59,774 nucleotides of DNA from Gaiellales bacterium (GTDB lineage: Bacteria > Actinomycetota > Thermoleophilia > Gaiellales > JAICJC01): positions 1 through 59,774 of the forward strand of contig DATAHR010000264.1 in the NCBI GenBank assembly GCA_036263035.1, written 5' to 3'. Positions 37,426 through 59,774 of this stretch are shown here, piece after piece (the first letter of the stretch is position 1; the number at the start of each line of letters is the position of its first letter). The position numbers were made by a program, and so were the translations under genes. Under the pieces are notes generated by a model. The model had not been told where the DNA came from. It saw only the letters and a program-made list of their open reading frames with translations, and did no database searches.

Positions 37426-37431
37426 TAAGCT
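37426..37431 (+). promoter_or_regulatory. -10-like TAAGCT, 6 nt upstream of LysR ATG 37438
   Basis: TAAGCTtcgcttATG. Confidence 0.35.
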
Positions 37432-37437
37432 TCGCTT

Positions 37438-39832: not shown

Positions 39833-39891
39833 GGCGCCGAAGTCTACCGATAGGCTCTGTCGCGTCCGCCGATGGATCGTTGCAATTTCCA

Positions 39892-40911
39892 ATGAACGTC
39901 CGAGCCCGCGCACCGCTTCGAATCAGCTTCGCCGGCGGCGGCACCGACGTCCCTCCGTTCCCCGAGCGGGAGGGCGGCCTCGTCCTCAACGCAACGATCG
40001 ATCGCTATGCGTACGGGCTGCTGCGCCCCCGGCGGGATCGCCAGGTGCGGATCGAATCCGCGGATTTCGGCCTGTCGGTCAACTACCAGGTCGACGAGGC
40101 GCCGATCTTCGACGGTCGGCTCGACCTGGTTAAGGCCGCGATCAGGCGGCTGGGTGATCCGAGCGCGCCGGGCTACGACATCTTCCTGCACTCGAATGCG
40201 CCGCCGGGGTCCGGGCTCGGCTCGAGCTCGACGGTGATGGTGACGCTGATCGGCCTGCTCAAGGACCACCACAACCTGGCGCTGACGGACTACGAGATCG
40301 CTCAGCTGTCGCACCACATCGAGCGGGTCGACATGGGAATGCTGGGCGGTATGCAGGATCAGTACGCGGCCACATTCGGCGGGTTCAACTTCATCGAGTT
40401 CGGGGCGGATCACGTGATCGTCAACCCGCTTCGGGTGAGCGCGGAGGTGGTCAACGAGCTCGAGCACAACATGCTGCTCTGCTACACGGGGGCGACGCGG
40501 CGGTCGGACGGCGTGATCGAGGATCAGACGGCCCGCTACGAGGGCGGGGAGTCGGGCACCCTGGCGGCGCTGCGGGGGCAGAAGCAGCTGGCGGTGGAGA
40601 TGAAGAACGCGCTGGTGCGCCGCCGGCCGCGGGAGTTCGGCGATCTGCTGCATGAGGCGTGGAAGCAGAAGAAGCGGATGTCGCCCAAGATCAGCACGGA
40701 GTTCATCGACACGGCGTACGCCGAGGCCAGGCGTGCGGGCGCGCTGGGCGGCAAGGTGACGGGCGCAGGGGGTGGCGGCTACATGCTGTTCTACTGCGAG
40801 TTCCAGAAGAAGCACCGCGTGGCGGAGGCGCTGACGCGGCTCGGGGGCGTCGTCACGGAGTTCGCGTTCGAGGCTGACGGGCTGACGACCTGGAGCATCG
40901 ACGATGGGTGA
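39892..40911 (+). CDS. hddA: D-glycero-alpha-D-manno-heptose 7-phosphate kinase-like GHMP kinase
   Basis: MNVRARAPLRISFAGGGTD, PPGSGLGSSSTVMV (GHMP motif II) and GAGGGGY (motif III). The context includes gmhA and gmhB. Confidence 0.8.
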   Translation: MNVRARAPLRISFAGGGTDVPPFPEREGGLVLNATIDRYAYGLLRPRRDRQVRIESADFGLSVNYQVDEAPIFDGRLDLVKAAIRRLGDPSAPGYDIFLHSNAPPGSGLGSSSTVMVTLIGLLKDHHNLALTDYEIAQLSHHIERVDMGMLGGMQDQYAATFGGFNFIEFGADHVIVNPLRVSAEVVNELEHNMLLCYTGATRRSDGVIEDQTARYEGGESGTLAALRGQKQLAVEMKNALVRRRPREFGDLLHEAWKQKKRMSPKISTEFIDTAYAEARRAGALGGKVTGAGGGGYMLFYCEFQKKHRVAEALTRLGGVVTEFAFEADGLTTWSIDDG

Positions 40912-41479
40912 TCGCGCGCTGCGCCGGCTGCAGCTGCATGCCGACATGGCGGCCGCACTGGTAACGGCGGAGCTGGCGTCGTCGCTCGAGCGCTGCGCGG
41001 GGGCGGTCGCAGACCGGTTGGAGGCGGGCGGAACGCTTGTCCTGTTCGGCAACGGGGGGAGCGCGGCCGACGCGCAGCACGTCGCTGCCGAGTTCACCGG
41101 GCGCTACATGCTGGAGCGCGATCCGCTGCCGGCCGTTGCCCTTGCCGAGAACGCTGCGGCCGTGACGGCGATCGGCAACGACTACGGGTTCGACCAGGTG
41201 TTCGCGCGCCAGGTTCGGGCCTTCAGGCGAGCGGGCGGAGCTGCGATCGCGCTGTCGACCAGCGGATCCTCCGCGAACGTGCTCGAGGGGCTGCGCGCGG
41301 CGCGGGAGTGCGAGCTGCTGACGGTCGGCGTGACGGGGCCGCGCGGCGAGGCGATGGGGGAGCTGTGCGACCACCTGATCGTGATACCGGCCGATGACAC
41401 GCCGCAGATCCAGGAGGGGACGATGCTCGTCCTGCACACGTTGTGCGAGCTGGTCGAGCAGCGGCTGTTCGCCGGATGA
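40904..41479 (+). CDS. gmhA: Phosphoheptose isomerase (SIS domain)
   Basis: LVLFGNGGSAADAQHVAAEF...TAIGNDYGFDQVFARQV...ALSTSGSSANV. Confidence 0.88.
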   Translation: MGDRALRRLQLHADMAAALVTAELASSLERCAGAVADRLEAGGTLVLFGNGGSAADAQHVAAEFTGRYMLERDPLPAVALAENAAAVTAIGNDYGFDQVFARQVRAFRRAGGAAIALSTSGSSANVLEGLRAARECELLTVGVTGPRGEAMGELCDHLIVIPADDTPQIQEGTMLVLHTLCELVEQRLFAG

Positions 41480-41967
41480 GCGAGCGGGCGGCCTTCCTCG
41501 ACCGGGACGGGACGATCAACGTGAAGGCGCCGGAGGGGGAGTACGTCACCTCGCCGGGCGGCTTCACGTTCCTGCCGGGTGCCGAGCGGGCGATCCGGCT
41601 GCTGGCGGAGGCCGGATGGCGGGTGGTCGTGGTCTCGAACCAGCGCGGCGTCGCCCTCGGCCGGATGACGGCTGCCGATGTGGACGCGGTGAACGCGCGC
41701 ATGGCGCACCTGCCGATCGACGGCATCTTCGTGTGCCCGCACGAACGCGGAGAGTGCGACTGTCGCAAGCCGGGGACGGGGCTGTTCCGCCAGGCACTGG
41801 AGCGGTTTCCGGGGATCGAGATCGAGCGGTCGGTGATGATCGGCGACGCGGACTCCGACATCGAGGCCGGGCGGGCAATCGGCGCTCGCACGTTCCGGGT
41901 GGGCGAGCCGCCGCTGCCGTCGCTGCTTCAGGTCGCCGAGCGGCTCGCCTGCGCACCGGCGAGGTGA
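41476..41967 (+). CDS. gmhB: D,D-heptose 1,7-bisphosphate phosphatase (HAD-IIIA)
   Basis: AAFLDRDGTIN (DxDGT), VVVSNQ, CPHERGECDCRKP (Zn-loop pattern) and IGDADSDIEAG. ATGA overlap with gmhA. Confidence 0.85.
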   Translation: MSERAAFLDRDGTINVKAPEGEYVTSPGGFTFLPGAERAIRLLAEAGWRVVVVSNQRGVALGRMTAADVDAVNARMAHLPIDGIFVCPHERGECDCRKPGTGLFRQALERFPGIEIERSVMIGDADSDIEAGRAIGARTFRVGEPPLPSLLQVAERLACAPAR

Positions 41968-42784: not shown

Positions 42785-43858
42785 ATGCGCATCGTCATCG
42801 CCAACCCGCCCGGGTTCGGCGGCCCCGACTACGACCATCACCTCTGCACCGCGCTCGCCGCCGAGGGCGAGGATGTCGAGCTGGTCACCACCCGCTTTCG
42901 CTTCGGCGCCATGCCCGAGCCGGATGGATACCGCCGCAGCCTGCTCTTCTACCCCGTCTCCGCCCGCCTTTTCGGCCGCTCCCGGCTGCGGGTGCCGGTC
43001 AAGATCGCCGAGCATCCGTTCGGCATGCTCCAGCTGGCGCGCCGGCGGGCTGACGTCGTCCACGTCCAGTGGCTCTCAATCCCCGAGCTCGATCGGTACC
43101 TGCTGCGAAGCCGCGCACCGCTCGTCTACACCGCCCACGACCACACCCAGCGCCGCACCGCCGGCAAGTCCCGCATGTGGAGTGAGCTCTACGCGCGCTT
43201 CCAGCGCATCGTCGCCCACTCCGAGTCCGGCCGTCAGGCCCTGGCCGCACAGGGCATCCCCGAGCACAAGCTGCGGGTCATCCCGCATCCGATCATCCGC
43301 AGCGACCCGCCTCGCACGGACGACGGCCGCACCCTGCTCTGCTTCGGGCTGATCCGCCCCTACAAGGGCATCGACGACGCGATCGAGGTGACGCGCCTGG
43401 TCGACGGCGCCCGCCTGCTGGTCGCCGGCGATCCCATGGAGCCGGTCGAGCGCTACCAGCGGCAGGCCGGCGACCTCGCCGAGTGGCGCCTCGGCTACCT
43501 GCCGCAGGCCGAGGTCGACCGCGCCTACGGCGACGCCACGCTGGCCATCTTCCCCTACAAGCCCGGCCTCGACCAGTCCGGCACCCTCCTGCGCGCCCTT
43601 GGCGCCGGCGTCCCGGCGGTCGCCTATGACGTGGGCGGCCTCGGCGAGAACATCCGCCGGTTCGACGCCGGACGGGTCGTGCCCGCCGGCGACGTCGAGG
43701 CGATGGCCGCCGCCGTCCGCGAGCTGCTTGACGACCCCGGGGCGCTGGCCGCCGCCCGACGCGGAGCCCTGATCGCCCGCGACACCCTCACCTGGCCGGC
43801 CTCGGCTCGGATGCACATCGAGCTCTACCGGGAGCTGCTCGGCGGCTCGAGTTCCTAG
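42785..43858 (+). CDS. GT4-family (GT-B) glycosyltransferase
   Basis: MRIVIANPPGFGGPDY and a C-terminal FPYKPGLDQSGTLLRALGAGVPAVAYDVGGLGE (E-x7-E-like region). Confidence 0.85.
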   Translation: MRIVIANPPGFGGPDYDHHLCTALAAEGEDVELVTTRFRFGAMPEPDGYRRSLLFYPVSARLFGRSRLRVPVKIAEHPFGMLQLARRRADVVHVQWLSIPELDRYLLRSRAPLVYTAHDHTQRRTAGKSRMWSELYARFQRIVAHSESGRQALAAQGIPEHKLRVIPHPIIRSDPPRTDDGRTLLCFGLIRPYKGIDDAIEVTRLVDGARLLVAGDPMEPVERYQRQAGDLAEWRLGYLPQAEVDRAYGDATLAIFPYKPGLDQSGTLLRALGAGVPAVAYDVGGLGENIRRFDAGRVVPAGDVEAMAAAVRELLDDPGALAAARRGALIARDTLTWPASARMHIELYRELLGGSSS

Positions 43859-43871
43859 AATCCCGGTCGCT

Positions 43872-44507
43872 ATGGGGCTCTACGAACGCGGAGGCAAGCG
43901 AGCGCTCGACATCGCCGGTGCAGGGGCGATGGCCGTCGTCACGGCGCCGGTGATGGGTGCCGTCGCCGTGGCCCTGTGGCGCACGCAGGGCCGCCCCATC
44001 ATCTTCACCCAGGAGCGGGTCGGGCGCGACGGCAGGGAGTTCACCATCTACAAGTTCCGGACGATGATCCGCGACGCCGCCGGCAAGGGGCAGGGCCTCT
44101 GGTTCGAGCGCAACGATCCGCGCATCACCCCGCTCGGCAAGTGGCTTCGGGCAACGTCGATCGACGAGCTGCCCCAGCTCTGGAACGTGATCAAGGGCGA
44201 CATGTCGCTCGTCGGCCCGCGGCCGAAGCCGCCCGAGCTGATCGACCGCTACCGCAGCCACTACGAGCCGACCCTGGCCGTGCGGCCCGGGCTCAGCCAC
44301 CTCCCCGGGGTGTCCGGGCGCAACACCCTGCGACGCTCGCAGATGATCGCCCTGGATCAGGAATACGTCCGCAACATCACCTTCCTCGGCGACCTGCGGC
44401 TGCTCCTGCGCACCGTCCCGGTGGTCATCTTCCGCCAAGGCTTCGACGCCGAGAACGAGACGGAGGAGTGGGTGGAGGACGTCCCGCCGGACGGTGCCCC
44501 TGCGTGA
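43872..44507 (+). CDS. Small monotopic phosphoglycosyl transferase (bacterial sugar transferase, PglC/WbaP C-domain type)
   Basis: KRALDIAGAGAMAVV...IFTQERVGRDGREFTIYKFRTM...TSIDELPQLWNVIKGDMSLVGPRP. Confidence 0.92.
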   Translation: MGLYERGGKRALDIAGAGAMAVVTAPVMGAVAVALWRTQGRPIIFTQERVGRDGREFTIYKFRTMIRDAAGKGQGLWFERNDPRITPLGKWLRATSIDELPQLWNVIKGDMSLVGPRPKPPELIDRYRSHYEPTLAVRPGLSHLPGVSGRNTLRRSQMIALDQEYVRNITFLGDLRLLLRTVPVVIFRQGFDAENETEEWVEDVPPDGAPA

Positions 44508-45463
44508 GCTGGCTGTCGCTCGACGAGTACGCGGAGCGGTGGGAGGCGGAGGGTGACGGCGATCCGTACTTCGAGCCGGCCTTCCTGCGCGCGTCGTCGC
44601 TCGGCCAGGACGGCGAGCCGGCCGCCTTTGCCCACGACGGCGTGCTCTACCCCTTCCTCGTGCGCCCGCTGCCGGACGGCCGGGTCGATATCACCACCGC
44701 CTACGGGTTCGGCGGCCCCTGGGGCAGCGGCGGCTGGCGCGCCGCGTTCCGGGCGGCCTGCGCCGATCGGGGGGTCGTCTCCGAGTTCGTGCGGTTCCAC
44801 CCGGTCCGGGCGAACCAGGACCAGGCCGGCGACGACGTCCGGCTGACCCACGTCCAGGACATGGTGGTTCTCGACGTCGGCGCCGACGATGAGGAGCTGA
44901 TCCGCCGCATGGTGCCCCAGGCCCGCAACAAGCTGCGGAAGGCGATCCGAAGCGGCCTGACCGCGGAGCCCAGCCGCGACCTCGAGCGCTTCTGGCGGAT
45001 GTACTCCGACGCGATGCGCGCGCTCGACGCCGACCGCAGCTACCACTTCGGGCTCGACTACTTCGAGTCGCTGGACGGCCTCGGCGACGCGCTGCTGATG
45101 CTCGACGCCGGGCCCGCCGCTGCGCTGTTCCTGCGCGGCGCCGGAGCGATGCACTACTTCCTCGCCGCCTCGACAGACGAGGGCCGGCGGACGGCCGCGG
45201 CCAACCTCGTCATCTACGAGGCCATGCGCATCGCCCGCGACGCCGGACTGAGCGTCCTCAACCTGGGAGGAGGGCTGCGCGACGGCGACGCCCTGCACGC
45301 GTTCAAGTGCTCGTTCGGGCCGGGTCGCCGGCCCTACTTCGTGGGCGCCGCGGTGCACGACCAGGGCGCGTACAACCGGCTGTCTGCCGCCGCCGGTGCG
45401 GCTCCCGACGAGCCGTTCTTCCCCGCCTACCGCCGCCCGGCGACGGCTTCGGCGGGGCCGTGA
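44504..45463 (+). CDS. FemAB-like / GNAT (Acetyltransf_6-type) acyl- or aminoacyl-transferase
   Basis: ARNKLRKAIRSGL, YHFGLDYFESL, HYFLAASTDEGRRTAAANLVIYEAMRIARDAGLSVLNLGGG and AFKCSFG. GTGA overlap with the upstream gene. Confidence 0.7.
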   Translation: MSWLSLDEYAERWEAEGDGDPYFEPAFLRASSLGQDGEPAAFAHDGVLYPFLVRPLPDGRVDITTAYGFGGPWGSGGWRAAFRAACADRGVVSEFVRFHPVRANQDQAGDDVRLTHVQDMVVLDVGADDEELIRRMVPQARNKLRKAIRSGLTAEPSRDLERFWRMYSDAMRALDADRSYHFGLDYFESLDGLGDALLMLDAGPAAALFLRGAGAMHYFLAASTDEGRRTAAANLVIYEAMRIARDAGLSVLNLGGGLRDGDALHAFKCSFGPGRRPYFVGAAVHDQGAYNRLSAAAGAAPDEPFFPAYRRPATASAGP

Positions 45464-45479
45464 CCCTATACTCGGGCCG

Positions 45480-46625
45480 GTGACCCTCCTTCTCCAGATC
45501 CTGTTCTGGGCCTCGCTTGCTGCCCTCGTCTGGACGCACCTCGCGTATCCGCTGGCCGTCGCCGCGTGGGCGAGGCTGCGGCCCTGGCCCGTCGCCAAGG
45601 CAGACGTCCTTCCGACCGTCAGCCTGATCATCCCCGCGTACAACGAGGAGCAGGTGATCGACGAAAAGCTGGAGAACGCCCTCGAGCTCGACTACCCCCG
45701 GGAGCTGCTCGAGATCGTCGTCACGTCCGACGCCTCGACCGACCGGACGCACGAGATCGTCCGGCGCTACGCCGACCGCGGCGTGCGGCTGATCGTCTGC
45801 GAGCGCGGTGGCAAGGTGGCCGCCCAGGACCGGGCGGTGCGCGAGACGACCGGTGAGATCGTCGCCTTCGGCGATGCGAACGTCCGCTGGGACCGTGACG
45901 CTGTCCGCCGCCTGGTGCAGGACTTCGCAGATCCGCGGGTGGGGATGGTCTGCGGCTACGTGCGGCTGGTCAACCCGAGCGGCGGCACCAACCAGGAGGG
46001 TCTCTACTGGCGCTACGAGATGTGGCTGCGCGAGCGGGAGTCGCGGCTGCACTCGATCACCGGCTCGAACGGCGCGATCTACGCCGTGCGGCGCGAGGCA
46101 TACCGCGAGGTCGACCCGCGGTTCGGCCACGACATGTCGTTCCCCTACCTGATGGTGCAGAACGGCTACCGCGCGGTCTACGAGCCGGATGCTCGCGGCA
46201 CCGAGAGCATGACCACCGACATCGAGGACGAGTTCCGGCGCAAGGTGCGGATGTTCGAGCACGCGTGGCTGATGCTCTTTCGCGGGCGCATGTTCGGGAT
46301 CCGCCGGCTCGGGCTCACGTACTGGGTGGAGCTCGTCTCACACCGGCTGCTGCGCTACTGGAGCGGCCCGCTGCACATCGTCCTGCTGGTGACGAGCGCC
46401 CTGCTCGCGACGCACGGGTGGTTCTACGCGGCCGTGCTCGCCGCGCAGCTGGTCGGCCTGGCGATGGCGCTGCTCTCGATCGCGGTGCGCGGGCGCTTCC
46501 GCGTCCTGCGTGTGCTCCACTACTACCTGCTGGTGACGCTGGCGACGGTGATCGCGCTGACCGGCTACGTGCGGCACGGCGTGCCGGCCACCTGGGACAA
46601 GGCCGCCGGCTCGCGTCTCACCTAG
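45480..46625 (+). CDS. GT2-family membrane glycosyltransferase (processive synthase-like)
   Basis: VSLIIPAYNEE, VVTSDASTD, FGDANV (DxD-like), NGAIYAVRRE, and a C-terminal multi-TM region. GTG 45480. Confidence 0.88.
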   Translation: MTLLLQILFWASLAALVWTHLAYPLAVAAWARLRPWPVAKADVLPTVSLIIPAYNEEQVIDEKLENALELDYPRELLEIVVTSDASTDRTHEIVRRYADRGVRLIVCERGGKVAAQDRAVRETTGEIVAFGDANVRWDRDAVRRLVQDFADPRVGMVCGYVRLVNPSGGTNQEGLYWRYEMWLRERESRLHSITGSNGAIYAVRREAYREVDPRFGHDMSFPYLMVQNGYRAVYEPDARGTESMTTDIEDEFRRKVRMFEHAWLMLFRGRMFGIRRLGLTYWVELVSHRLLRYWSGPLHIVLLVTSALLATHGWFYAAVLAAQLVGLAMALLSIAVRGRFRVLRVLHYYLLVTLATVIALTGYVRHGVPATWDKAAGSRLT

Positions 46626-48521: not shown

Positions 48522-49493
48522 CTAGCGCCCGAGCCGCCGCCGGATCAGGTACGGCACCTCCCGGCCCCGCTCGCGCCACACGTGCAGCACCGTGAAGTGC
48601 CAGCCTTTCACCGCCCAGTTGTGCGCCTGCCAGGCGGCGTCGGGGATGCGTGGCGGCGTGCTTCCCTGCCCCGTCTCGTACCCGTGCCGCTCGAGCTCGG
48701 CGCCGGCGATCGACTCGAACAGCGCCACATCCGACGGCCGCATCTGCCGCCGCCACTTGCCCACCGACGCGGCGGTGATGCCCGCATAGAGCTCCGTGAA
48801 CCATGCCTCCTGACCGGCTGCGATCCGGTCCTGCGGGGTCTCCTCCACCGCCAGCATCCCCGGCTCGTACGCGATCTCGAGGAAGCGGCAGATCCCCGGC
48901 ACCACTCCAGCAGGGTCGGCGACCAGATCCTCGTAGCGCACCGTCAGCAGGTCGTCTCCGAGCCACTCGGCGTCGCGGTCCACCGCCCGCACGGCGTTGC
49001 GCCACTGGTGCGCCGCCGCCCACACGTTCGCCGGCCCGAACGGCACCCGCAGCAGCGAGAGCGCCACATCCCGGCCGTCGCGCACCAGGTTGACGATCCG
49101 CGCTTCCGGGAACACGCGCCGAATCTCGGCCAGGTGCTCGACGTAGTACGGCGTCTTGTCACCCCACCCCGGCTTCCCGTGCTGATCGGCGTAGGCGAGA
49201 TAGGGGGACTCCAGGGCGGCCCGGTAGGCCTCGGCGCCGTGCCGTCCCTCGCTCCGTGGCGGACGCCTGGCAAGTCGCCACTCCCGCACCTTCGGATGCC
49301 GCCACACGGCCGCCGCCAGACGGTCGAACTGCTCGTCGGTGTCGAGGGCGCCGAACCGGCCGCGGATGGCGGCCATGTCGACGACGATCATCGATTCCGT
49401 CGGGATGGCCACGTCGGCGCTGCGATCGAGGATCAGCCGCAGCATGGTCGTGCCCGAGCGGTCGCAGGCGACGATGAAGAACGGCCTGGCCAG
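48522..49493 (-). CDS. PAPS-dependent sulfotransferase (Sulfotransfer_3-like); probable non-canonical CTG start
   Basis: FFIVACDRSGTTMLRLIL (5'-PSB loop) and LVRDGRDVALS (3'-PB region). The P-loop lies upstream of the first ATG (49445). The only in-frame start after the TGA at 49497-49499 is CTG at 49493. Confidence 0.75.
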   Translation of the reverse strand: MARPFFIVACDRSGTTMLRLILDRSADVAIPTESMIVVDMAAIRGRFGALDTDEQFDRLAAAVWRHPKVREWRLARRPPRSEGRHGAEAYRAALESPYLAYADQHGKPGWGDKTPYYVEHLAEIRRVFPEARIVNLVRDGRDVALSLLRVPFGPANVWAAAHQWRNAVRAVDRDAEWLGDDLLTVRYEDLVADPAGVVPGICRFLEIAYEPGMLAVEETPQDRIAAGQEAWFTELYAGITAASVGKWRRQMRPSDVALFESIAGAELERHGYETGQGSTPPRIPDAAWQAHNWAVKGWHFTVLHVWRERGREVPYLIRRRLGR

Positions 49494-54590: not shown

Positions 54591-55493
54591 TCATTCAGCC
54601 GGCTGCGAGCGCACCACGGCGGCGACGCGCTGGCCGCGGGCGACGTACATGAGCCCGATGACGACCATCACGGCCCCGCCGACCACGTACCACATCGGGG
54701 CGGCGTCGAGTGTCTTCAGGCCGGAGGCGCCGAGCACGACTGCGATGCCGCCGCGGAGCAGGCGCTCTGGTGCGCGGTGCGTGAAGTGCGAGCCGATCAG
54801 AATGCCCGGGATCGAGCCGATCAGGATCGAGGCGACCACGCTGTAGTTCGGCGCGCCGAACGCGATCGTCGCGAGGCCGGCGGCGATCGTCACCAGCATG
54901 GCGTGGAACAGGTCGGTGCCGACGACGCGGCGCGCGCTGAGCGGGAACAGCGTGACGAGGGCGATGCCGAAGAACACGCCCGAGCCGACGGACGTGAGGC
55001 CGAGGATGAAGCCGAACACGACGCCGATCGTGACCGCGAGCACCTTGTGATAGGCGGTCAGCTCGCCGTCCGTGGGCAGCCGGCCGGCGTCCCAGACGCG
55101 CGGGATGGTGATGAACGTGCGGGCGGCGACGACCAGGGCGACCAGGACGAGGATGCCGCCGATCAGGTCCAGCAGCACGGTCTCGACGTCGATGCCGATG
55201 CGCGGGAAGATCTCGTAGAGCGTGAACACGCCGAGGATCGCGGCGGGCACGCTGCCGGCGCCCATCCACAGGCCCAGCTCGCGGTTCACGTTCTTGAGCT
55301 GATGGTGGCGAGCCGCGCCGAACACCTTCGTGATCGCCGCGTAGATCAGGTCGCTGCCGACGGCGGTCGTCGGCGGGATCCCGAACACCGAGATCAGGAT
55401 CGGCGTCATCAGCGACCCGGCTCCCATCCCGGTCAGCCCCACCAGCATGCCGACGGCGAGCCCGGCTGCGATCATTCCCGCGTTGATGTCCAT
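54591..55493 (-). CDS. TauE/SafE (TSUP) family sulfite/organosulfonate exporter
   Basis: Two-fold 4-TM repeat with GLTGMGAGSLMTPIL and GLTSVGSGVFFGIAL motifs. Confidence 0.85.
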   Translation of the reverse strand: MDINAGMIAAGLAVGMLVGLTGMGAGSLMTPILISVFGIPPTTAVGSDLIYAAITKVFGAARHHQLKNVNRELGLWMGAGSVPAAILGVFTLYEIFPRIGIDVETVLLDLIGGILVLVALVVAARTFITIPRVWDAGRLPTDGELTAYHKVLAVTIGVVFGFILGLTSVGSGVFFGIALVTLFPLSARRVVGTDLFHAMLVTIAAGLATIAFGAPNYSVVASILIGSIPGILIGSHFTHRAPERLLRGGIAVVLGASGLKTLDAAPMWYVVGGAVMVVIGLMYVARGQRVAAVVRSQPAE

Positions 55494-55539
55494 GCCCTAC
55501 TGCCCCTCCCGTGGAAGCCAATTCACGCCTAGTCCAACT

Positions 55540-55567
55540 AGTCTAAGCGATTTAGTGGAGAATGCAA
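55540..55567 (-). promoter_or_regulatory. Putative promoter TTGCAT-N16-TAGACT for the TauE gene, in the lowest-GC stretch of this region
   Basis: Minus strand: TTGCATtctccactaaatcgctTAGACT, followed by a leader of about 40 nt containing the direct repeat GACTAG-N3-GACTAG and the RBS GGGAGGGG. Confidence 0.4.
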
Positions 55568-55638
55568 CCCCGGGTTGCGATGTTCCCACCCGAAGCTGCT
55601 GGGAAACAGGGAACGCGGGAGGCGTGCGAGCAGCCTTT

Positions 55639-55683
55639 AAGAGAACACAAGCGGGGGGTCGGGATGTGCTCCCGGCCCCCCGC
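55639..55683 (-). terminator. Intrinsic terminator after sat
   Basis: Minus-strand RNA GCGGGGGGCCGGGA-GCACA-UCCCGACCCCCCGC (13 bp, 1 mismatch) followed by UUGUGUUCUCUU. It begins 10 nt past the sat stop. Confidence 0.7.
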
Positions 55684-55693
55684 GGAGGCTCTG

Positions 55694-56863
55694 CTACTGC
55701 TGGCGGTAGGCCTCGATCAGCACCTGGGCCACCTCCGGGCGCGAGAACTCGACAGGCGGCACCTCGCCGTTGCCGAGCATCTCCCGCACCTTGGTGCCCG
55801 AGAGGAAGACGTGGTGGTCCGCGTCGTGCGGGCACGTCTTGTTCGAGGCCATGTTCCCGCACGTCCTGCAGAAGAACGTGTGGTCGAAGAACATCGGCTC
55901 GATGTCGAGCTCGTGCGGCTCGAACTCGTCGAAGATGTGATGCGCGTCGTAGGTGCCGTAGTACGACCCGACGCCCGCGTGGTCTCGCCCGACGATGAAG
56001 TGCGAGCAGCCGTAGTTCTTGCGGCAGATCGCGTGCCAGACCGCCTCGCGGGGGCCGGCGTAGCGCATCGCCGCCGGGAACACGCTGAGCAGGGTGCGGT
56101 CGGCCGGGTAGTACTTCTCGAGCAGCACCTGGTAGCAGCGCATCCGCACGTCCGCCGGGATGTCGTCGCCCTTCGTCTTGCCGACGAGCGGGTGCAGCAG
56201 CAGCCCGTCCACCGTCTCCAGCGCGCACTTCTGAATGTACTCGTGGGCACGATGCACCGGGTTTCGCGTCTGGAACCCGACGACCCGCGCCCAGCCGCGC
56301 TCGGCGAAGACCGCCCGGGTGTCCTTCGGATCCAGGTGGTGCGACGGGAACGCCGGGTCGGGCCGCTTGAAGACCGTGACCGGGCCACCCACCAGCGTCG
56401 GGCCCTCGGCATATATCTGCGCCACGCCGGGGTGCTGCTCATCGGTGGTGCGGTAGGTCTTGGCCGCCTCGTTCTCGCGGTCGACCGAGTACACCTCCTC
56501 GACGTCCAGGACGCCGAGCAGCTCGCCCTCGGGGCTCTCCAGCGCAACACGGTCGCCCTCCGGCGCCTCCGGCGCCGACAGGGTCACGGGAAGCGCCCAG
56601 GGCAGGCCGTTTGACAGGTGCATCGACTCGACCGACGCGTCGTAGTCGGCCCGGGTCATGAAGCCCGTCAGCGGCGACAGCGCGCCGGAGGCGATCATGT
56701 CCAGGTCGGCCGTCTGCTTCTCACTCATCCGCACGCGGGGGAGCGATGCGGCCTCCTCGGCCAGCGAGGCGGCCTCGTCACCGGTCACCGTGCGATCGAT
56801 CAGCTCCCCGCCGTGCGGCGCGATCAGGTTTCCACCGGTCTTCGTCGTCGTGGCCTCTGCCAT
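55694..56863 (-). CDS. sat: Sulfate adenylyltransferase (homo-oligomeric ATP sulfurylase)
   Basis: GFQTRNPVHRAHE, VGRDHAGVG and a C-terminal FFCRTCGNMASNKTCPH. TGATG overlap with cysC. Confidence 0.93.
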   Translation of the reverse strand: MAEATTTKTGGNLIAPHGGELIDRTVTGDEAASLAEEAASLPRVRMSEKQTADLDMIASGALSPLTGFMTRADYDASVESMHLSNGLPWALPVTLSAPEAPEGDRVALESPEGELLGVLDVEEVYSVDRENEAAKTYRTTDEQHPGVAQIYAEGPTLVGGPVTVFKRPDPAFPSHHLDPKDTRAVFAERGWARVVGFQTRNPVHRAHEYIQKCALETVDGLLLHPLVGKTKGDDIPADVRMRCYQVLLEKYYPADRTLLSVFPAAMRYAGPREAVWHAICRKNYGCSHFIVGRDHAGVGSYYGTYDAHHIFDEFEPHELDIEPMFFDHTFFCRTCGNMASNKTCPHDADHHVFLSGTKVREMLGNGEVPPVEFSRPEVAQVLIEAYRQQ

Positions 56864-57426
56864 CAGGCGACGGCCTCCTCGGCCTCGCGTGCCAGGAACC
56901 CGAGCTCCTCCAGGCGGTCGATCACGACCCGCGCCGACTGCTCCGGCGTGCGGCCCTCGGTCTCGACCACGATCTCGGGGTCGGTCGGAGGCTCGTACGG
57001 ATCGGACACGCCCGTGAACTCCTTGATCTCGCCGGCGAACGCCTTGGCGTAGAGCCCCTTGACGTCCCGCCGCGCGCACTCGTCCAGCGACGTGGCCACG
57101 TAGACCTCGACGAACCGGTCGCCGATCATCTCGCGCACCGCGTCGCGCGTCTCGGCGTACGGCGAGATCGCGGCGACGATGACGCCGGCGCCATGGCGGG
57201 TCAGCAGCTTCGCGACGAAGCCGATCCGCAGGATGTTGGTGTCGCGGTCCTCCCGGGAGAACCCGAGGCCCTTGCTGAGGTTGGTGCGGACGACGTCGCC
57301 GTCGAGATGGTCGACGAGGATGCCGCGCCGCTCGAGCTCGGGGCCGACGATCTCGGCGATCGTGCTCTTGCCGGCACCGGACAGTCCGGTGAACCAGAGT
57401 GTGAATCCATGGTTTTCCTGTGGCAC
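56863..57426 (-). CDS. cysC: Adenylylsulfate (APS) kinase
   Basis: [22 protein letters not shown] and [11 protein letters not shown] 57426 (AAAGGA upstream) is preferred. The track start 57495 would overlap cysH by 22 nt. Confidence 0.88.
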
Positions 57427-57473
57427 TTGTGGAGATCCTTTCGCAGTTGTACCGTCTGGCGCTTTGTAGCGCC

Positions 57474-58178
57474 TCAGCTTCCGTGGAGGCCGCACTCCAC
57501 CTTGCCGGTGCCCTTCCAGCGGCCGGTCCGCTCGTCCCCGCCCTCCTCCACCGCGCTGGTGCAGGGGACGCAGCCGATCGACGGGAATCCGTGGTCGTGC
57601 AACGGGTTATAGGGGATGCCGTGCCTCCAGATATAACGCCAGACGTCGCGGTTCGTCCAGTCCACGAGCGGCTGCACCTTCACCACGCCGCGGCGCTCAT
57701 CTATTTCGATTTTGCGGGCGTTTTCGCGAGTTGTCGACTGCTCCCTGCGAATTCCCGTGATCCAGGCGTCCATACCCTCGAGCGCCTGGCGCAGCGGTGC
57801 GACCTTGCGCATCCCGCAGCACGCGTCCGGATCCCGCTCCCACAGCCGATCCCCGTGCACGGCGGCCTGCTCCTCCACCGACAGCTCGGGCTCGATCCGG
57901 TCGAACCGGACCGGGTAGCGCTCGATCAGCTTGCGCCGCGTCTCGTAGGTCTCGCGGAACAGCAGGCCGGTGTCGAACTCGACCACGCGCACGTCGGGCT
58001 CGATCTCCGAGAGCATGTGCACCAGCACGGAGCTCTGCTTCTGCCAGGAGCAGGTCAGCACCAGCCGCGGATGGAACAGCTCGACGGCAACCCGCAGGAC
58101 GTCCTCCGCCCGCTTGTCCTCGAGCTCGTTCGCGAGCCGCTCGGCCTCGGCCGGGCTGATCGGGAGGATCGTGCTCAC
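57474..58178 (-). CDS. cysH: APS/PAPS reductase; the Cys pattern indicates a 4Fe-4S APS reductase
   Basis: [30 protein letters not shown] and [11 protein letters not shown] overlap with the comA stop. The rest of track ORF 57474-58730 is shadow. Confidence 0.88.
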
Positions 58179-58954
58179 GTCGCCGTCGGGATGTCGCGAA
58201 GCAGGAGGTCGGGCATCGTGTCCGAGCGCAGGCCGAGGCGCAGCGTCTCCAGCGGGATCACCTCGTCGGGCGGGATGTTGCCGAGGTTGACCTCGGGCCC
58301 GAGGTGGCGGATGAACCAGGCCTGCTGCTCCTTCTGCGGGGCCTCGAACAGCAGCTGGTCGAGCGGGATCTCGTGCACGATCTCGTCGATCAGGCCGCTT
58401 CGCACCTCGCCGGTGCCGCGGAAGATGCCGGCCGTTCCGGTCTCGCGCGCCTCGGTGATCACCTTCCACGCGCCGGCCTCGAGCTCCTCGCGGATCCAGG
58501 CGACCCACTGGTAGGGCGCGTAGATCGCGTCCTGATCCTTCGAGCCCACCTCCGACAGCACGACGAAGTCCTCCGCGAGCGCGCCGATCAGCTCCTGCTT
58601 GCTCTCGCGCTCCATCCGCAGCGTGCCGTCGCTGACCTCGACGTGCGTGAAGCCGTAGCCCTTCGTCCAGCGCTTGAACTCGTCCACCTTGCCGCGGGCG
58701 ACGGCGGCTTCGAGCAGCGTCCCGCCGCACATCACGGGCGTGTCGAACGAGCGGTACAGCTTCACCTTCTCGGAGAGGTTCTGCGTGACGTACGACGTGC
58801 CCCAGCCGAGCTTGACGATGTCGACGTACTCGCCCGCGGTCTCGAACAGCCCGTTCACATCGGCCAGCGTCATGCCCTTGTCGATCACGTGGGTGAGGCC
58901 GCGCTCACGCGGCTTCGAGGGGCGCAGCGGGACTCCCAGGAACTCTTCGACCAT
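58175..58954 (-). CDS. comA: (2R)-phospho-3-sulfolactate synthase
   Basis: Collinear with archaeal ComA as I recall it: GLTHVIDKG, DIVKLGWGTS, GGTLLE, VEVSDG, FEAPQKEQQAWFI, NLGNIPPDEVIPLETLRLGLRSDT. Confidence 0.88.
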   Translation of the reverse strand: MVEEFLGVPLRPSKPRERGLTHVIDKGMTLADVNGLFETAGEYVDIVKLGWGTSYVTQNLSEKVKLYRSFDTPVMCGGTLLEAAVARGKVDEFKRWTKGYGFTHVEVSDGTLRMERESKQELIGALAEDFVVLSEVGSKDQDAIYAPYQWVAWIREELEAGAWKVITEARETGTAGIFRGTGEVRSGLIDEIVHEIPLDQLLFEAPQKEQQAWFIRHLGPEVNLGNIPPDEVIPLETLRLGLRSDTMPDLLLRDIPTAT

Positions 58955-58957
58955 GGC

Positions 58958-59545
58958 CTACAACCTCGAGTAGATGGTTTCCTCGAGCCGCCTGCGCGCC
59001 TCGACCTGGACGTTCTCGTACAGCGACTCGCCGTGGGTATCCATGCCGACGATCAGCGGCCCGAAGTCCCGCACCCGGAACTTCCAGAGGCACTCCGGCA
59101 TCAGGTCCTCCCACTCGACCTGCTCGATCTCCTCGATCTGCGTCGTCTCCAGGGCCGCCGCGCCGCCGACGATGGCGAGATAGACGCCGCCGTGCGCGCG
59201 CAGCGGCTCGAGCGCCTCCGGCAGCAGGCCGCCCTTGCCGATGATCGCGCGCGCGTGGTGGTCGCGGACGAGGCCCTCGGTGAAGCGGCTCATGCGTGCG
59301 CTGGTGGTGGTGCCGATGCACATCGGCTCGTAGCGGCCGTCGCCGAGCTTGCGGACGTTGGGGGCGGTGTGCAGGAGCGCGGCCCCCTCGAGCGACATGG
59401 GCGGCTCCTGGCCGCGATCGAAGATGCGGATCTGGGTGGCATCGCGGATGCCGATGATGTGGCCCTGGATGGTGACGGTGTCGCCGGCGCGCAGCTCGCG
59501 GACGGTGGACTCGTCGGTGGGGAAGGTGATCTCGTGATGGGCCAT
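58958..59545 (-). CDS. Fe-S type hydro-lyase beta subunit (class I fumarase / tartrate dehydratase family)
   Basis: LRAGDTVTIQGHIIGIRDATQIR, AIIGKGG and YLAIVGGAAAL. ATG 59545. The stop lies 3 nt before the comA ATG. Confidence 0.8.
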   Translation of the reverse strand: MAHHEITFPTDESTVRELRAGDTVTIQGHIIGIRDATQIRIFDRGQEPPMSLEGAALLHTAPNVRKLGDGRYEPMCIGTTTSARMSRFTEGLVRDHHARAIIGKGGLLPEALEPLRAHGGVYLAIVGGAAALETTQIEEIEQVEWEDLMPECLWKFRVRDFGPLIVGMDTHGESLYENVQVEARRRLEETIYSRL

Positions 59546-59774
59546 CACGCCTCCCGGTCGTAGTCGACGGTGCCGTCGGCGTGGATGTGGGCGCTGGCGC
59601 GGCGCGCGGCCCAGCATTGGTAGTTCACGGCCACGGGATTCAACGTGATGTGCGTGTGCGCCTGCTCCACGTGCACGGAGAGGACGGTGGTGTCGCCGCC
59701 CAGGCCCATCGGGCCGATGCCGGTCTCGTTCAGGAGCTCGAACAGCTCCCGCTCGAGCTGGGCGACGTCCGGGT
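59545..59774 (-). CDS. Fe-S type hydro-lyase alpha subunit, C-terminal fragment (N-terminus beyond the right edge)
   Basis: My translation: PDVAQLERELFELLNETGIGPMGLGGDTTVLSVHVEQAHTHITLNPVAVNYQCWAARRASAHI.... TGATG overlap with the beta subunit. Confidence 0.75.
   Translation of the reverse strand, partial: PDVAQLERELFELLNETGIGPMGLGGDTTVLSVHVEQAHTHITLNPVAVNYQCWAARRASAHIHADGTVDYDREA

What the first reader, a model, noticed from the sequence alone, without database searches (positions are those of the whole stretch)
54591..59774. Hydro-lyase(alpha/beta)-comA-cysH-cysC-sat operon plus TauE: sulfate to organosulfonate pathway with an unassigned fumarase-like step
On the minus strand, a two-subunit Fe-S (class I fumarase/tartrate dehydratase-type) hydro-lyase comes first, with a TGATG overlap between the subunits. 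Its stop lies 3 nt before phosphosulfolactate synthase comA, which is GTGA-coupled to cysH. A 47-nt gap follows, then cysC, TGATG-coupled to sat, and the unit ends in a clear intrinsic terminator (55639-55683). The CC...CxxC pattern marks CysH as a 4Fe-4S APS reductase, so it does not need CysC. No sulfite reductase is present. Instead ComA, which adds sulfite to PEP, sits next to the sulfite-producing enzyme. The operon therefore splits APS two ways: APS to sulfite to phosphosulfolactate (ComA), and APS to PAPS (CysC) for the nearby sulfotransferase. A TauE/SafE sulfite/sulfonate exporter with its own promoter follows. A sat-cysH-comA grouping recalls the Bacillus subtilis yit sulfolactate locus (from memory; verify). 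What is unexplained is the tightly coupled class I fumarase-like enzyme and the absence of ComB/ComC. Sulfolactate is the sulfonate analogue of malate, so a fumarase-type enzyme could interconvert sulfolactate and sulfoacrylate. That would be functionally analogous to, but unrelated in fold to, the aspartase/fumarase-superfamily enzyme of the bacterial coenzyme M pathway. This is inference. The product could be sulfolactate, a CoM-like thiol, or a sulfonated building block for the neighbouring glycan.
Basis: partly seen in the sequence, partly recalled or inferred. Interest (0 to 1): 0.7.

Follow-up and report, generated by a model that had tools for sequence, protein, structure and literature searches.

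The report
Sulfate-to-sulfonate operon with fumarase-like step
A soil actinobacterium (Gaiellales) carries an operon that turns sulfate into sulfite, fixes it onto phosphoenolpyruvate, and then probably uses copies of fumarase and fumarate reductase to make a small carbon-sulfur acid, most likely 3-sulfopropionate, for decorating its cell surface; I found no description of this pathway in the literature I could search.

Summary
On the minus strand lie TauE, sat, cysC, cysH, comA and a two-subunit Fe-S hydro-lyase, with the stated overlaps and terminator. The operon does not start with the hydro-lyase. A 99.6%-identical contig shows two more genes upstream: a HIT protein and a truncated FrdA/SdhA-like flavoprotein ("FADox").

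The block FADox-alpha-beta-ComA is conserved across Thermoleophilia. When the operon split in some genomes, that block kept its own comA copy.

In other phyla the same FADox and ComA sit next to an XcbC-like lyase instead of the hydro-lyase. XcbC is the enzyme that makes sulfoacrylate from phosphosulfolactate. Carboxylate-activating enzymes (ATP-grasp, or AMP-ligase plus carrier protein), sugar deacetylases and polysaccharide genes lie alongside.

All 12 linked flavoproteins examined replace the position of E. coli FrdA Thr244 (by my recollection the substrate-contacting Thr) with Pro.

Best reading: sulfate → sulfite → phosphosulfolactate → sulfoacrylate (hydro-lyase step) → 3-sulfopropionate (FADox) → acyl donor for a surface glycan. 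CysC feeds a nearby sulfotransferase.

A CoM-like product is not supported.

The parts
59545..59774 (-). 3' end (75 codons plus stop) of the Fe-S hydro-lyase alpha subunit (class I fumarase/tartrate dehydratase family). The rest lies beyond the window.
   Evidence: Pfam Fumerase, E 5e-23. The full 299-aa gene on the 99.6%-identical contig L001 matches M. jannaschii fumarase alpha 7xky_A at E 1e-71 and keeps CQDTG, KGSGSEN, CPP and QCWA-RRA.
58958..59545 (-). Fe-S hydro-lyase beta subunit (195 aa). Its ATG overlaps the alpha stop (TGATG). Proposed sulfolactate (or phosphosulfolactate) to sulfoacrylate lyase.
   Evidence: Pfam Fumerase_C, E 1e-30. It passes TIGR00723 and fails the NF004708 equivalog cut-off. 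7xky_B, E 3e-32. It is 60-65% identical to the beta subunits of FADox-linked clusters in other phyla, against 35-43% to archaeal fumarase beta.
58175..58954 (-). comA, (2R)-phospho-3-sulfolactate synthase (259 aa). It starts 3 nt after the beta stop.
   Evidence: Pfam ComA, E 2e-89. TIGR03849 scores 260 bits against a cut-off of 280. B. subtilis YitD 1u83, E 8e-64. 40% identity to Xanthobacter XcbB1.
57474..58178 (-). cysH, thioredoxin-type (P)APS reductase with the CC...CxxC Fe-S motif. Its GTG start overlaps the comA stop (GTGA).
   Evidence: PAPS_reduct, E 5e-54. NF002537 scores 270 bits (passes). TIGR02055 APS_reductase scores 229 against 235.
56863..57426 (-). cysC, APS kinase (187 aa, GTG start), 47 nt after cysH.
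   Evidence: APS_kinase, E 5e-62. NF002059 passes.
55694..56863 (-). sat, ATP sulfurylase (389 aa). Its ATG overlaps the cysC stop (TGATG).
   Evidence: PUA_2 plus ATP-sulfurylase. NF003166 scores 558 bits.
55639..55683 (-). Intrinsic-terminator-like hairpin (8+5 bp G+C-rich stem) followed by a T-rich tail, closing the operon.
   Evidence: Fold of the 76-nt stretch: -43.4 kcal/mol, z = -4.4. Not flagged by the consensus scanner.
54591..55493 (-). TauE/SafE-family anion permease (300 aa), after a 200-nt A+T-richer spacer. Substrate unknown (sulfite, sulfate or the sulfonate product).
   Evidence: Pfam TauE, E 8e-42. It follows sat or comA in most Thermoleophilia loci.
48522..49445 (-). PAPS-dependent sulfotransferase in the adjoining glycan cluster. 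Likely consumer of the CysC product.
   Evidence: PF13469 Sulfotransfer_3 on the identical contig L002; ORF seen.

Best explanation
The window holds the 3' part of an eight-gene operon: HIT, FrdA-like flavoprotein (FADox), Fe-S hydro-lyase alpha and beta, ComA, CysH, CysC and Sat. A TauE permease and a surface-glycan cluster follow.

Proposed pathway:
1. Sat and CysH reduce sulfate to sulfite.
2. ComA adds sulfite to PEP, giving phosphosulfolactate.
3. After dephosphorylation, or possibly directly, the fumarase-like alpha/beta enzyme removes water (or phosphate) to give sulfoacrylate, the sulfonate analogue of fumarate.
4. The truncated fumarate-reductase-like flavoprotein reduces sulfoacrylate to 3-sulfopropionate, the analogue of succinate.
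5. In related clusters this acid is activated at its carboxylate (ATP-grasp ligase, or AMP-ligase plus carrier protein). It is probably transferred to the amino group of a de-N-acetylated sugar in a cell-surface polysaccharide.
6. CysC supplies PAPS to the neighbouring sulfotransferase.

Shown: gene identities, synteny and sequence signatures. Inferred: every substrate after phosphosulfolactate, the electron donor, and the fate of the product in this genome.
For: 1. The operon extends upstream on a 99.6%-identical contig.

2. FADox-alpha-beta-ComA is conserved.
- In the 80 ComA-seeded Thermoleophilia genome loci, about 57 have alpha/beta and about 62 have FADox next to ComA.
- In the metagenome scan seeded on beta alone, 48 of 67 informative loci have ComA directly after beta. 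All 26 loci that also have the truncated FADox upstream do so.

3. Four MAGs carry two comA copies. One sits in HIT-ComA-CysH-CysC-Sat-TauE, the other in FADox-alpha-beta-ComA. The ComA tree places both as derived from the fused form, so the flavoprotein/hydro-lyase block kept its own ComA.

4. Non-orthologous displacement. Truncated FADox relatives at 35-45% identity in organisms of 32-54% G+C sit in FADox/XcbC-like Lyase_1/ComA clusters (L090, L094, L095, L101, L104, L186; L093 has no ComA in view).
- The lyases score 429-455 bits on NCBIfam CoM_syn_XcbC against about 270 on argH.
- A tblastn of one of them (L095) against plasmids hits the coenzyme M plasmids first.
- Four of them (L090, L093, L094, L095) are 30-38% identical to Xanthobacter XcbC1 (Xaut_5053), against 21-27% to XcbD1.

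5. Gaiellales type C loci have ATP-grasp, FADox, alpha/beta, ComA and DUF7033. That is the same set as L095 with alpha/beta in place of the XcbC-like lyase.

6. In alpha/beta-type clusters outside the main group, ComA is followed by a His_Phos_1 phosphatase (L087, L118, L154). It never is in the XcbC-type clusters. This fits a need for free sulfolactate.

7. All 12 linked FADox proteins have Pro at the position of E. coli FrdA Thr244. They lack the covalent-FAD His44 and the NadB Glu121. They keep His232, Arg287, His355 and Arg390.

8. Carboxylate-activating enzymes and deacetylases recur beside the module: ATP-grasp, AMP-binding plus PP-binding, CE4, DUF7033 and PIG-L. So do Wzx/Wzy/Wza, glycosyltransferase and DegT genes. 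The window itself has DegT, glycosyltransferases, Wzy_C and a sulfotransferase downstream.
Against: - There are no biochemical data.
- The alpha/beta subunits keep every class I fumarase motif. Alpha even passes the NCBIfam 'fumarate hydratase' cut-off.
- The same bacterial alpha/beta clade also occurs without ComA. It sits next to a different 575-aa flavoprotein (L130 group), or next to a 541-aa flavoprotein plus Hdr-like genes that look like genuine fumarate metabolism (L150). So no sulfonate-specific signature exists in the hydro-lyase.
- Seven Thermoleophilia loci have FADox-ComA without any lyase nearby. At least two loci with enough upstream sequence (L106, L135) have alpha/beta with ComA a few kb away and no FADox; three similar loci (L118, L124, L154) are too short upstream to tell.
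- In this genome no ATP-grasp, deacetylase or phosphatase is seen within reach.
- I could not check whether the genome has another fumarase.
- 3-Sulfopropionyl glycans did not turn up in the searched literature.
Confidence: 0.55

Rival explanations
1. The operon makes free (R)-sulfolactate or another small sulfonate as a solute or storage compound, as B. subtilis spores do, or for export through TauE. The hydro-lyase and flavoprotein still act on sulfonate analogues, but the product is not attached to a glycan in this organism.
For: The sat/cysC/cysH/comA grouping mirrors the B. subtilis yit operons. TauE follows the operon in most loci. No ATP-grasp, AMP-ligase or deacetylase lies within the window or the type A loci.
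Against: Sister clusters put the same module inside polysaccharide loci with carboxylate-activating enzymes. The window operon itself abuts a glycan cluster, and a GT2 gene is divergently adjacent to HIT in types A and B.
Confidence: 0.17
2. The flavoprotein oxidises rather than reduces. It could convert (R)-sulfolactate to sulfopyruvate, as SdhA oxidises malate, or act on cysteate as an aspartate-oxidase analogue. The product would be sulfopyruvate or cysteate, and the hydro-lyase would have an auxiliary role.
For: FADox is stand-alone, non-covalent and closest overall to NadB/SdhA models. No reductant-supplying partner gene is present. Type D loci have FADox-ComA without a lyase.
Against: The NadB-specific Glu is absent. 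In the XcbC-type clusters the only available intermediate is sulfoacrylate, not sulfolactate, and no phosphatase is present there. No aminotransferase or ComDE is consistently linked.
Confidence: 0.1
3. The hydro-lyase and flavoprotein are an ordinary fumarase plus a soluble fumarate reductase (a reductive TCA branch). They merely sit beside sulfur-assimilation genes in this lineage.
For: All fumarase motifs are intact and alpha passes the fumarate hydratase HMM cut-off. Flavoprotein-alpha-beta triads exist without ComA, and at least one looks like genuine fumarate metabolism (L150).
Against: The tight coupling to comA (3 nt) is conserved down to 52% alpha, 60% beta and 44% FADox identity in other phyla. 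The block retains its own comA after the operon split. An XcbC-like lyase replaces alpha/beta in otherwise identical clusters. The position of FrdA Thr244 is Pro only in the linked flavoproteins. The module is embedded in polysaccharide loci.
Confidence: 0.1
4. The module is catabolic. It would oxidise sulfopropionate to sulfoacrylate, hydrate that to sulfolactate, and release sulfite for assimilation through a ComA-like lyase running backwards. The operon would pool sulfite from sulfate and from sulfonates.
For: Both halves would produce sulfite. TauE-family proteins include sulfonate or sulfite transporters. A SAR11 study suggested a catabolic role for ComA homologues next to transporters (PMC11796062).
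Against: The reverse ComA reaction needs the phosphorylated substrate, and no kinase is present. No sulfite reductase is nearby. Sister clusters sit in biosynthetic polysaccharide loci with ligases and carrier proteins, and XcbC is a biosynthetic enzyme.
Confidence: 0.05

Closest known systems
Bacterial coenzyme M pathway of Xanthobacter autotrophicus Py2 (XcbB-XcbC-XcbD-XcbE-XcbA; PMC9457059)
   Same: The first step is identical (ComA/XcbB, 40% identity). Sister clusters carry an XcbC-like phosphosulfolactate phosphate-lyase (30-38% identity to XcbC1), so sulfoacrylate is the shared intermediate. The Fe-S hydro-lyase occupies the XcbC slot.
   Different: No XcbD, XcbE or XcbA homologues were found in any locus. 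A FrdA-like flavoprotein follows instead, so the predicted product is 3-sulfopropionate, not a thiol. In this window the lyase is a [4Fe-4S] class I fumarase-type enzyme, unrelated in fold to the aspartase/fumarase superfamily.
Bacillus subtilis yitBA-yisZ / yitCD sulfolactate genes (Graham et al. 2002, as cited in PMC517825)
   Same: The combination of sat, cysC, a cysH-type reductase and comA. YitD is the closest solved relative of this ComA (1u83, E 8e-64).
   Different: There is no ComB phosphatase here. A HIT protein, a flavoprotein and a hydro-lyase are added. The predicted end product lies beyond sulfolactate, and the context is a surface-glycan cluster rather than sporulation.
Class I fumarase plus fumarate reductase (malate to fumarate to succinate), e.g. 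two-subunit M. jannaschii fumarase 7xky and E. coli FrdA
   Same: The same two enzyme families in the same order of chemistry (dehydration, then enoate reduction). The catalytic motifs of both are retained. Flavoprotein-alpha-beta triads without ComA exist (L150).
   Different: The flavoprotein is truncated (about 400 aa, no C-terminal domain), has no covalent FAD and no Fe-S or membrane partner, and has Pro at the position of FrdA Thr244. The genes are translationally coupled to comA and replaceable by XcbC-like lyases. The proposed substrates are the sulfonate analogues.
Deacetylase-plus-ligase N-acyl exchange on amino sugars (MshB/MshC of mycothiol, BshB/BshC of bacillithiol; from memory)
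   Same: Sister clusters pair a PIG-L/LmbE or CE4-type deacetylase with an ATP-dependent ligase next to the acid-forming enzymes.
   Different: The ligases are ATP-grasp or AMP-binding enzymes, the acid is a sulfonate, and the acceptor is presumably a polysaccharide precursor. None of these partners is seen within this window.

Membership tests
Phosphosulfolactate synthase ComA (PF02679 / TIGR03849) | Full-length match to the family model | tested here: met
   Pfam ComA, E 2e-89, residues 11-245 of 259.
Phosphosulfolactate synthase ComA (PF02679 / TIGR03849) | Score above the NCBIfam equivalog cut-off | tested here: not met
   TIGR03849 scores 260 bits against a cut-off of 280. ComA proteins of the sister clusters score about the same.
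Phosphosulfolactate synthase ComA (PF02679 / TIGR03849) | Close similarity to characterised enzymes | tested here: met
   B. subtilis YitD 1u83, E 8e-64. M. jannaschii ComA 1qwg, E 2e-46. XcbB1, 40% identity.
Phosphosulfolactate synthase ComA (PF02679 / TIGR03849) | Catalyses PEP + sulfite to phosphosulfolactate | not testable with these tools
   Needs an enzyme assay.
Class I (Fe-S) fumarate hydratase / tartrate dehydratase, two-subunit type | Alpha subunit with the three cluster-ligand Cys motifs and CQDTG | tested here: met
   On L001 alpha: CQDTG, CPP and QCWA-RRA aligned to 7xky_A. Only the last motif lies inside the window.
Class I (Fe-S) fumarate hydratase / tartrate dehydratase, two-subunit type | Beta subunit with the RD, TTSxRM and GKGG substrate-binding motifs | tested here: met
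   GIRD, GTTTSARM and GKGG are present.
Class I (Fe-S) fumarate hydratase / tartrate dehydratase, two-subunit type | Scores above the 'fumarate hydratase' equivalog cut-offs | tested here: inconclusive
   Alpha passes NF004885 (319.8 against 276). Beta fails NF004708 (161.6 against 269) and passes only the subfamily model TIGR00723.
Class I (Fe-S) fumarate hydratase / tartrate dehydratase, two-subunit type | Physiological substrate is fumarate/malate (or tartrate) | not testable with these tools
   Context argues for a sulfonate analogue. No sequence signature separates ComA-linked from unlinked members.
Bacterial coenzyme M biosynthesis (Xcb) | XcbC, XcbD, XcbE and XcbA present alongside XcbB | tested here: not met
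   tblastn with the Xanthobacter proteins finds only XcbB (ComA) in the window and the Thermoleophilia loci. XcbC-like genes occur only in the sister clusters. XcbD/E/A are found nowhere, apart from one weak hit of XcbD1 (22% identity) to the XcbC-like lyase itself in L093. The database for that search held the window and loci L001-L093 only, so L094, L095, L101, L104 and L186 were not searched; their Pfam gene tables show no second Lyase_1 gene and no other candidate.
Archaeal CoM / sulfolactate route (ComA-ComB-ComC-ComDE) | ComB phosphatase, ComC dehydrogenase and ComDE decarboxylase nearby | tested here: not met
   No PF04029, Ldh_2 or TPP-enzyme genes among the neighbours annotated or scanned. 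The rest of the genome was not searchable.
Assimilatory sulfate reduction operon | Sat (or CysDN), (P)APS reductase and sulfite reductase together | tested here: not met
   Sat, CysC and CysH are present. No sulfite reductase is in the operon or among the large window ORFs.
FrdA/SdhA/NadB flavoprotein family (upstream FADox, outside the window) | FAD_binding_2 fold with the catalytic Arg and the His/Arg dicarboxylate-binding residues | tested here: met
   His232, Arg287, His355 and Arg390 equivalents are kept.
FrdA/SdhA/NadB flavoprotein family (upstream FADox, outside the window) | Marks of the known subfamilies: covalent-FAD His (Sdh/Frd), Glu121 (NadB), act-Thr244, C-terminal domain, Fe-S partner | tested here: not met
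   His44 is Asn or Lys (Arg in L101). Glu121 is Cys, Gly or Ala (Ser in L102). Thr244 is Pro in 12 of 12 linked proteins. The protein ends at about residue 404, and no Fe-S subunit gene is adjacent.
TauE/SafE permease | Full-length Pfam match; transported substrate | tested here: inconclusive
   PF01925, E 8e-42. No NCBIfam hit. Substrate and direction are unknown.

The most novel reading that the evidence does not exclude
A widespread and, in the literature searched, undescribed organosulfonate pathway mirrors the malate-fumarate-succinate branch with sulfonate analogues: PEP + sulfite to phosphosulfolactate to sulfoacrylate to 3-sulfopropionate.
- A class I Fe-S 'fumarase' acts as a sulfolactate dehydratase. 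It is interchangeable with XcbC-type lyases.
- A truncated FrdA-like flavoprotein acts as a sulfoacrylate reductase.
- The product is a sulfatase-proof anionic N-acyl group, installed on de-N-acetylated amino sugars of surface polysaccharides.
- The module occurs in Gaiellales, Bacteroidota, Verrucomicrobiota, Alphaproteobacteria and Omnitrophota.
Probability: 0.4. Interest if true: 0.85.

Novelty: new variant of a known kind. Interest (0 to 1): 0.75.

Why it matters
If correct, four things follow.
- Two textbook enzyme families, class I fumarase and the fumarate reductase flavoprotein, would gain new substrates. That would be a clear case of a central-metabolism pair recruited to sulfonate chemistry.
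- A Fe-S hydro-lyase and an aspartase/fumarase-superfamily lyase would be shown to be interchangeable routes to sulfoacrylate.
- A new biogenic sulfonate, 3-sulfopropionate or its amide on glycans, would be predicted in soil Gaiellales and in several other phyla. This bears on soil and marine organosulfur budgets and on surface charge that sulfatases cannot remove.
- All of this can be tested directly with three or four recombinant proteins and LC-MS.

Tried and rejected
- **Literature.** Seven searches (hydro-lyase plus phosphosulfolactate synthase; sulfoacrylate; sulfopropionate; sulfopropanoyl and related acyl groups; XcbC plus polysaccharide; FrdA Thr244) found no description of this cluster or product. 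The misaugamycin cassette of ComA, acyl-CoA ligase and ACP (PMC9136965) is only a loose parallel.
- **Hydro-lyase signature.** I looked for a sulfonate-specific signature. The motifs that set the bacterial clade apart from archaeal fumarases (GTTTS, MPECLWKF) are shared by loci without ComA, so none was found.
- **Other flavoprotein readings.** NadB is rejected because the Glu121 equivalent is absent. Respiratory Frd/Sdh is rejected because there is no covalent-FAD His, no C-terminal domain and no Fe-S partner.
- **CoM product.** Rejected, because no XcbD/E/A or ComB/C/DE was found.
- **Partners in the window.** A search for ATP-grasp, DUF7033, PIG-L, His_Phos_1 and XcbC-like genes found only a DegT aminotransferase.
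- **Regulatory signals.** Rfam found no riboswitch or other RNA in the window or L001. The consensus promoter/terminator scanner found neither the TauE promoter nor the sat terminator; the terminator rests on folding alone.
- **Gene calling.** My ad hoc GC3-based gene caller missed some genes, for example the DUF7033-like gene of type C. Only tblastn recovered it.
- **Failed look-up.** Fetching the paper on FrdA Thr244 by PubMed id failed. That residue's role is therefore cited from memory.

Full report
**1. The observation**

The window is about 70% G+C. Six complete genes and one cut gene lie on the minus strand between 54591 and 59774. Their identities were checked against Pfam and NCBIfam.

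| Gene | Coordinates (minus strand) |
|---|---|
| TauE | 54591-55493 |
| sat | 55694-56863 |
| cysC | 56863-57426 |
| cysH | 57474-58178 |
| comA | 58175-58954 |
| Fumerase_C beta subunit | 58958-59545 |
| Fumerase alpha subunit, last 75 codons | 59545-59772 |

- The hairpin plus T-rich tail at 55639-55683 folds strongly (z = -4.4).
- CysH carries CC...CVPC and a C-terminal ECGLH, the pattern of the Fe-S type (P)APS reductases.
- ComA is closest to B. subtilis YitD (1u83, E 8e-64) and then to M. jannaschii ComA.
- The remembered parallel with the B. subtilis yit genes is correct (PMC517825).

**2. The operon is longer than the window**

An exact-sequence look-up of ComA found contig L001, which is 99.6% identical to the window over 4.15 kb. 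Upstream of alpha, in the same direction, lie a 135-aa HIT protein and a 404-aa FAD_binding_2 flavoprotein, here called FADox. The unit is therefore HIT-FADox-alpha-beta-ComA-CysH-CysC-Sat. The hydro-lyase is not the first gene.

FADox belongs to the FrdA/SdhA/NadB family but to none of its known branches.
- It stops before the C-terminal domain.
- It has Asn where Frd/Sdh have the covalent-FAD His.
- It has Cys where NadB has Glu121.
- It keeps the His/Arg/His/Arg set that binds a dicarboxylate and donates the proton.

**3. Synteny within Thermoleophilia**

A scan of species-representative genomes with ComA returned 572 relatives. The best 80 are all Gaiellales or other Thermoleophilia MAGs, which identifies the source organism. 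I searched the operon proteins against these loci and counted architectures.

| Architecture | Loci |
|---|---|
| HIT-FADox-a-b-ComA-CysH-CysC-Sat-TauE (as here) | 25 |
| The same without HIT | 15 |
| FADox-a-b-ComA alone ("type C") | 10 |
| FADox-a-b-ComA-TauE | 5 |
| HIT-ComA-CysH-CysC-Sat(-TauE), no flavoprotein or hydro-lyase ("type B") | 9 |
| FADox-ComA, no hydro-lyase ("type D") | 7 |
| Fragments and minor variants (cut contigs, single-gene gaps) | 9 |

- Four MAGs carry both a type B and a type C locus.
- In the ComA tree these are derived from the fused arrangement.
- When the operon split, the flavoprotein/hydro-lyase block took a comA copy with it. That is hard to explain unless the three work together.

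**4. Synteny outside Thermoleophilia, and a gene swap**

A profile-free search of 1.8 billion representative proteins with FADox found full-length, roughly 400-aa relatives at 35-66% identity. I then looked at their genomic contexts.

Clusters with the hydro-lyase:
- L087 (47% G+C): polysaccharide genes, then FADox-alpha-beta-ComA-His_Phos_1-PIG-L.
- L102, an Omnitrophota MAG: nonulosonic-acid genes, an aminotransferase, then FADox-alpha-beta.

Clusters with a Lyase_1 protein instead of alpha/beta, next to FADox and ComA:
- L090, L094, L095, L101, L104, L186, and L093, where no ComA is in view.
- The two lyases scanned against NCBIfam (L090, L093) score 429-455 bits on the model for XcbC, against about 270 bits for argininosuccinate lyase.
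- The L095 lyase, searched against plasmids, hits the coenzyme M plasmids of alkene oxidisers first. One hit is Xanthobacter Xaut_5053, the gene right after phosphosulfolactate synthase.
- Four of them (L090, L093, L094, L095) are 30-38% identical to XcbC1, against 21-27% to XcbD1.
- XcbC is the enzyme shown to eliminate phosphate from phosphosulfolactate to give sulfoacrylate (PMC9457059).

The link is tightest in the Gaiellales type C loci. They consist of a divergent ATP-grasp gene, FADox, alpha, beta, ComA and a GTGA-coupled DUF7033 gene.
- This is the gene set of L095 (ATP-grasp, FADox, XcbC-like, ComA, DUF7033) with alpha/beta in place of the lyase.
- The ATP-grasp and DUF7033 proteins are homologous between the two.
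- This is a non-orthologous displacement, and it assigns the hydro-lyase to the sulfoacrylate-forming step.

A His_Phos_1 phosphatase follows ComA in three hydro-lyase-type clusters (L087, L118, L154) and in none of the XcbC-type clusters. That is what one would expect if the hydro-lyase needs dephosphorylated sulfolactate.

**5. The flavoprotein**

All 12 FADox proteins linked to ComA, XcbC-like or alpha/beta genes have Pro at the position of E. coli FrdA Thr244. This holds from 70%-G+C Gaiellales to 32%-G+C contigs.
- FrdA, SdhA-like, NadB-like and NuoF-associated relatives have Thr or Ser there.
- From memory (Tomasiak et al. 2008, J Biol Chem; I could not retrieve the paper), Thr244 is the active-site-loop Thr that hydrogen-bonds the substrate.
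- A changed contact at one end of an otherwise intact dicarboxylate site fits a sulfonate replacing one carboxylate.
- The natural reaction for such an enzyme placed after a sulfoacrylate-forming lyase is enoate reduction to 3-sulfopropionate.
- The electron donor is unknown.

**6. Fate of the product**

Next to the module one repeatedly finds three kinds of genes.
- Enzymes that activate a carboxylate: ATP-grasp in L090, L093, L095, L101, probably L094, type C, and L060/L065. In L186 there is an AMP-binding enzyme with a PP-binding carrier protein instead.
- Sugar deacetylases: CE4, DUF7033 and PIG-L.
- Polysaccharide assembly and modification genes: Wzx, Wzy, Wza, glycosyltransferases, DegT and sulfotransferases.

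The simplest reading is that the sulfonated acid is an acyl donor for the free amine of a de-N-acetylated sugar in a surface glycan.

In this window the operon abuts such a glycan cluster: two Wzy_C genes, a sulfotransferase at 48522-49445, a GT2, a DegT at 35258-36367 and a DUF354. No ligase or deacetylase is in reach. For this genome the fate of the product is therefore the weakest link, and export through TauE remains possible.

**7. Caveats**

A second, independent scan of metagenome contigs was seeded only on the beta subunit.
- ComA lies directly after beta in 48 of 67 informative loci.
- It does so in 26 of 26 loci that also show the truncated FADox.
- 13 loci have none.

Some of the loci without ComA pair alpha/beta with a different 575-aa flavoprotein. 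One pairs it with a 541-aa flavoprotein and Hdr-like genes, which looks like genuine fumarate metabolism.

- The hydro-lyase has no residue signature that separates ComA-linked from unlinked members.
- Its alpha subunit passes the "fumarate hydratase" HMM cut-off.
- Sequence alone therefore cannot tell a sulfolactate dehydratase from a fumarase. The case rests on context.
- At least two loci (L106, L135) have alpha/beta with ComA a few kb away and no FADox. Three similar loci are too short upstream to tell.
- Type D loci have FADox and ComA without any lyase.
- I could not read whole genomes. Whether another fumarase, a sulfite reductase or the missing ligase exists elsewhere is unknown.

**8. 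Comparison and novelty**

The system shares its first step with both coenzyme M pathways and with B. subtilis sulfolactate synthesis. Its second step is shared, functionally, with the bacterial coenzyme M pathway. It fails the membership tests for all of them.
- No XcbD/E/A.
- No ComB/C/DE among the neighbours scanned.
- No sulfite reductase in the operon or the large window ORFs.

Seven full-text searches found no description of a ComA/FrdA-like/fumarase-like or ComA/FrdA-like/XcbC-like module, of a sulfoacrylate reductase, or of sulfopropionyl glycans. The library lacks most subscription journals, so prior work cannot be excluded.

I class it as a new variant of a known kind: a new branch of ComA/sulfoacrylate chemistry built from recruited TCA-type enzymes.

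**9. Verdict**

The central idea is strengthened, while the operon boundary and one product option need correcting.
- Confidence that the hydro-lyase and flavoprotein act on sulfonate analogues via sulfoacrylate: about 0.55-0.65.
- Confidence in the full chain to an N-sulfopropanoyl glycan: about 0.4.
- Interest: 0.75.

Noticed in passing
beyond the window end; L001:6854-7261 (+): A HinT-like HIT protein is the first gene of the operon. Across loci it travels with the ComA-CysH-CysC-Sat half (types A and B), not with the flavoprotein/hydro-lyase block. It might act on APS, or stand in for the missing phosphosulfolactate phosphatase. Neither was tested.
   Followed up: partly
window 35258-38352 (+): A DegT aminotransferase, a DUF354 protein and a LysR regulator lie in a row. 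The same trio, or DUF354 with a homologous LysR, lies directly beside the hydro-lyase/ComA genes in other loci (L106, L075, L076, L118, L154). This suggests a shared regulator and a shared amino-sugar pathway.
   Followed up: partly
L053:10760-11626 and L063:10762-11657: In type D loci (FADox-ComA...CysH), about 860 bp between comA and cysH show no ORF with the usual codon-position G+C pattern. I could not say what is encoded there.
   Followed up: no
L130:5362-7089 and the equivalents in L131, L136, L137, L139, L163, L167: A 575-aa flavoprotein precedes a closely related alpha/beta hydro-lyase, with no ComA within 8 kb where the flanks reach that far. It is only 30-35% identical to FADox and has SGCTRM and ATGGL in place of the usual motifs. 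Function unknown.
   Followed up: partly
L150:4741-12455 (also L151): A ferredoxin-like gene, a 541-aa FrdA-like flavoprotein, alpha, beta and heterodisulfide-reductase-like genes lie in a row. This is probably a genuine soluble fumarase/fumarate-reductase system. It may resemble the ancestor of the recruited module.
   Followed up: no
L097:7366-10891: Relatives of FADox with an N-terminal extension of about 80-90 residues (480-560 aa overall) sit between a ferredoxin-like gene and a NuoF-like (Complex1_51K) gene in WOR-3, Bathyarchaeia and others. This looks like an NADH-linked enoate or fumarate reductase unrelated to ComA.
   Followed up: no
L088:8001-9248: An archaeal MAG has a stand-alone 415-aa truncated relative among housekeeping genes. 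It lacks the Glu245/Arg248 equivalents. It is not part of the ComA-linked group.
   Followed up: no
Thermoleophilia loci, e.g. L011:16543, L035:17312, L076:17503: A PIG-L/LmbE-type deacetylase, 52-60% identical to the one that directly follows ComA-His_Phos_1 in L087, lies 5-8 kb downstream of comA in most Thermoleophilia loci. It is absent from this window and its two closest relatives.
   Followed up: partly
window 39880-41967 (+): Judged only from N-terminal sequence by eye, a GHMP-kinase-like, an SIS-like and a HAD-phosphatase-like gene lie in a row, which looks like heptose-nucleotide synthesis. Glycosyltransferase and sugar-transferase genes follow at 42785-46625. These belong to the neighbouring glycan cluster and were not analysed.
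   Followed up: no
window 55494-55693: The spacer before TauE is A+T-richer. It contains TTGCAT-16 nt-TAGACT, a weak promoter-like pair that the consensus scanner did not accept. No Rfam family matches there.
   Followed up: partly
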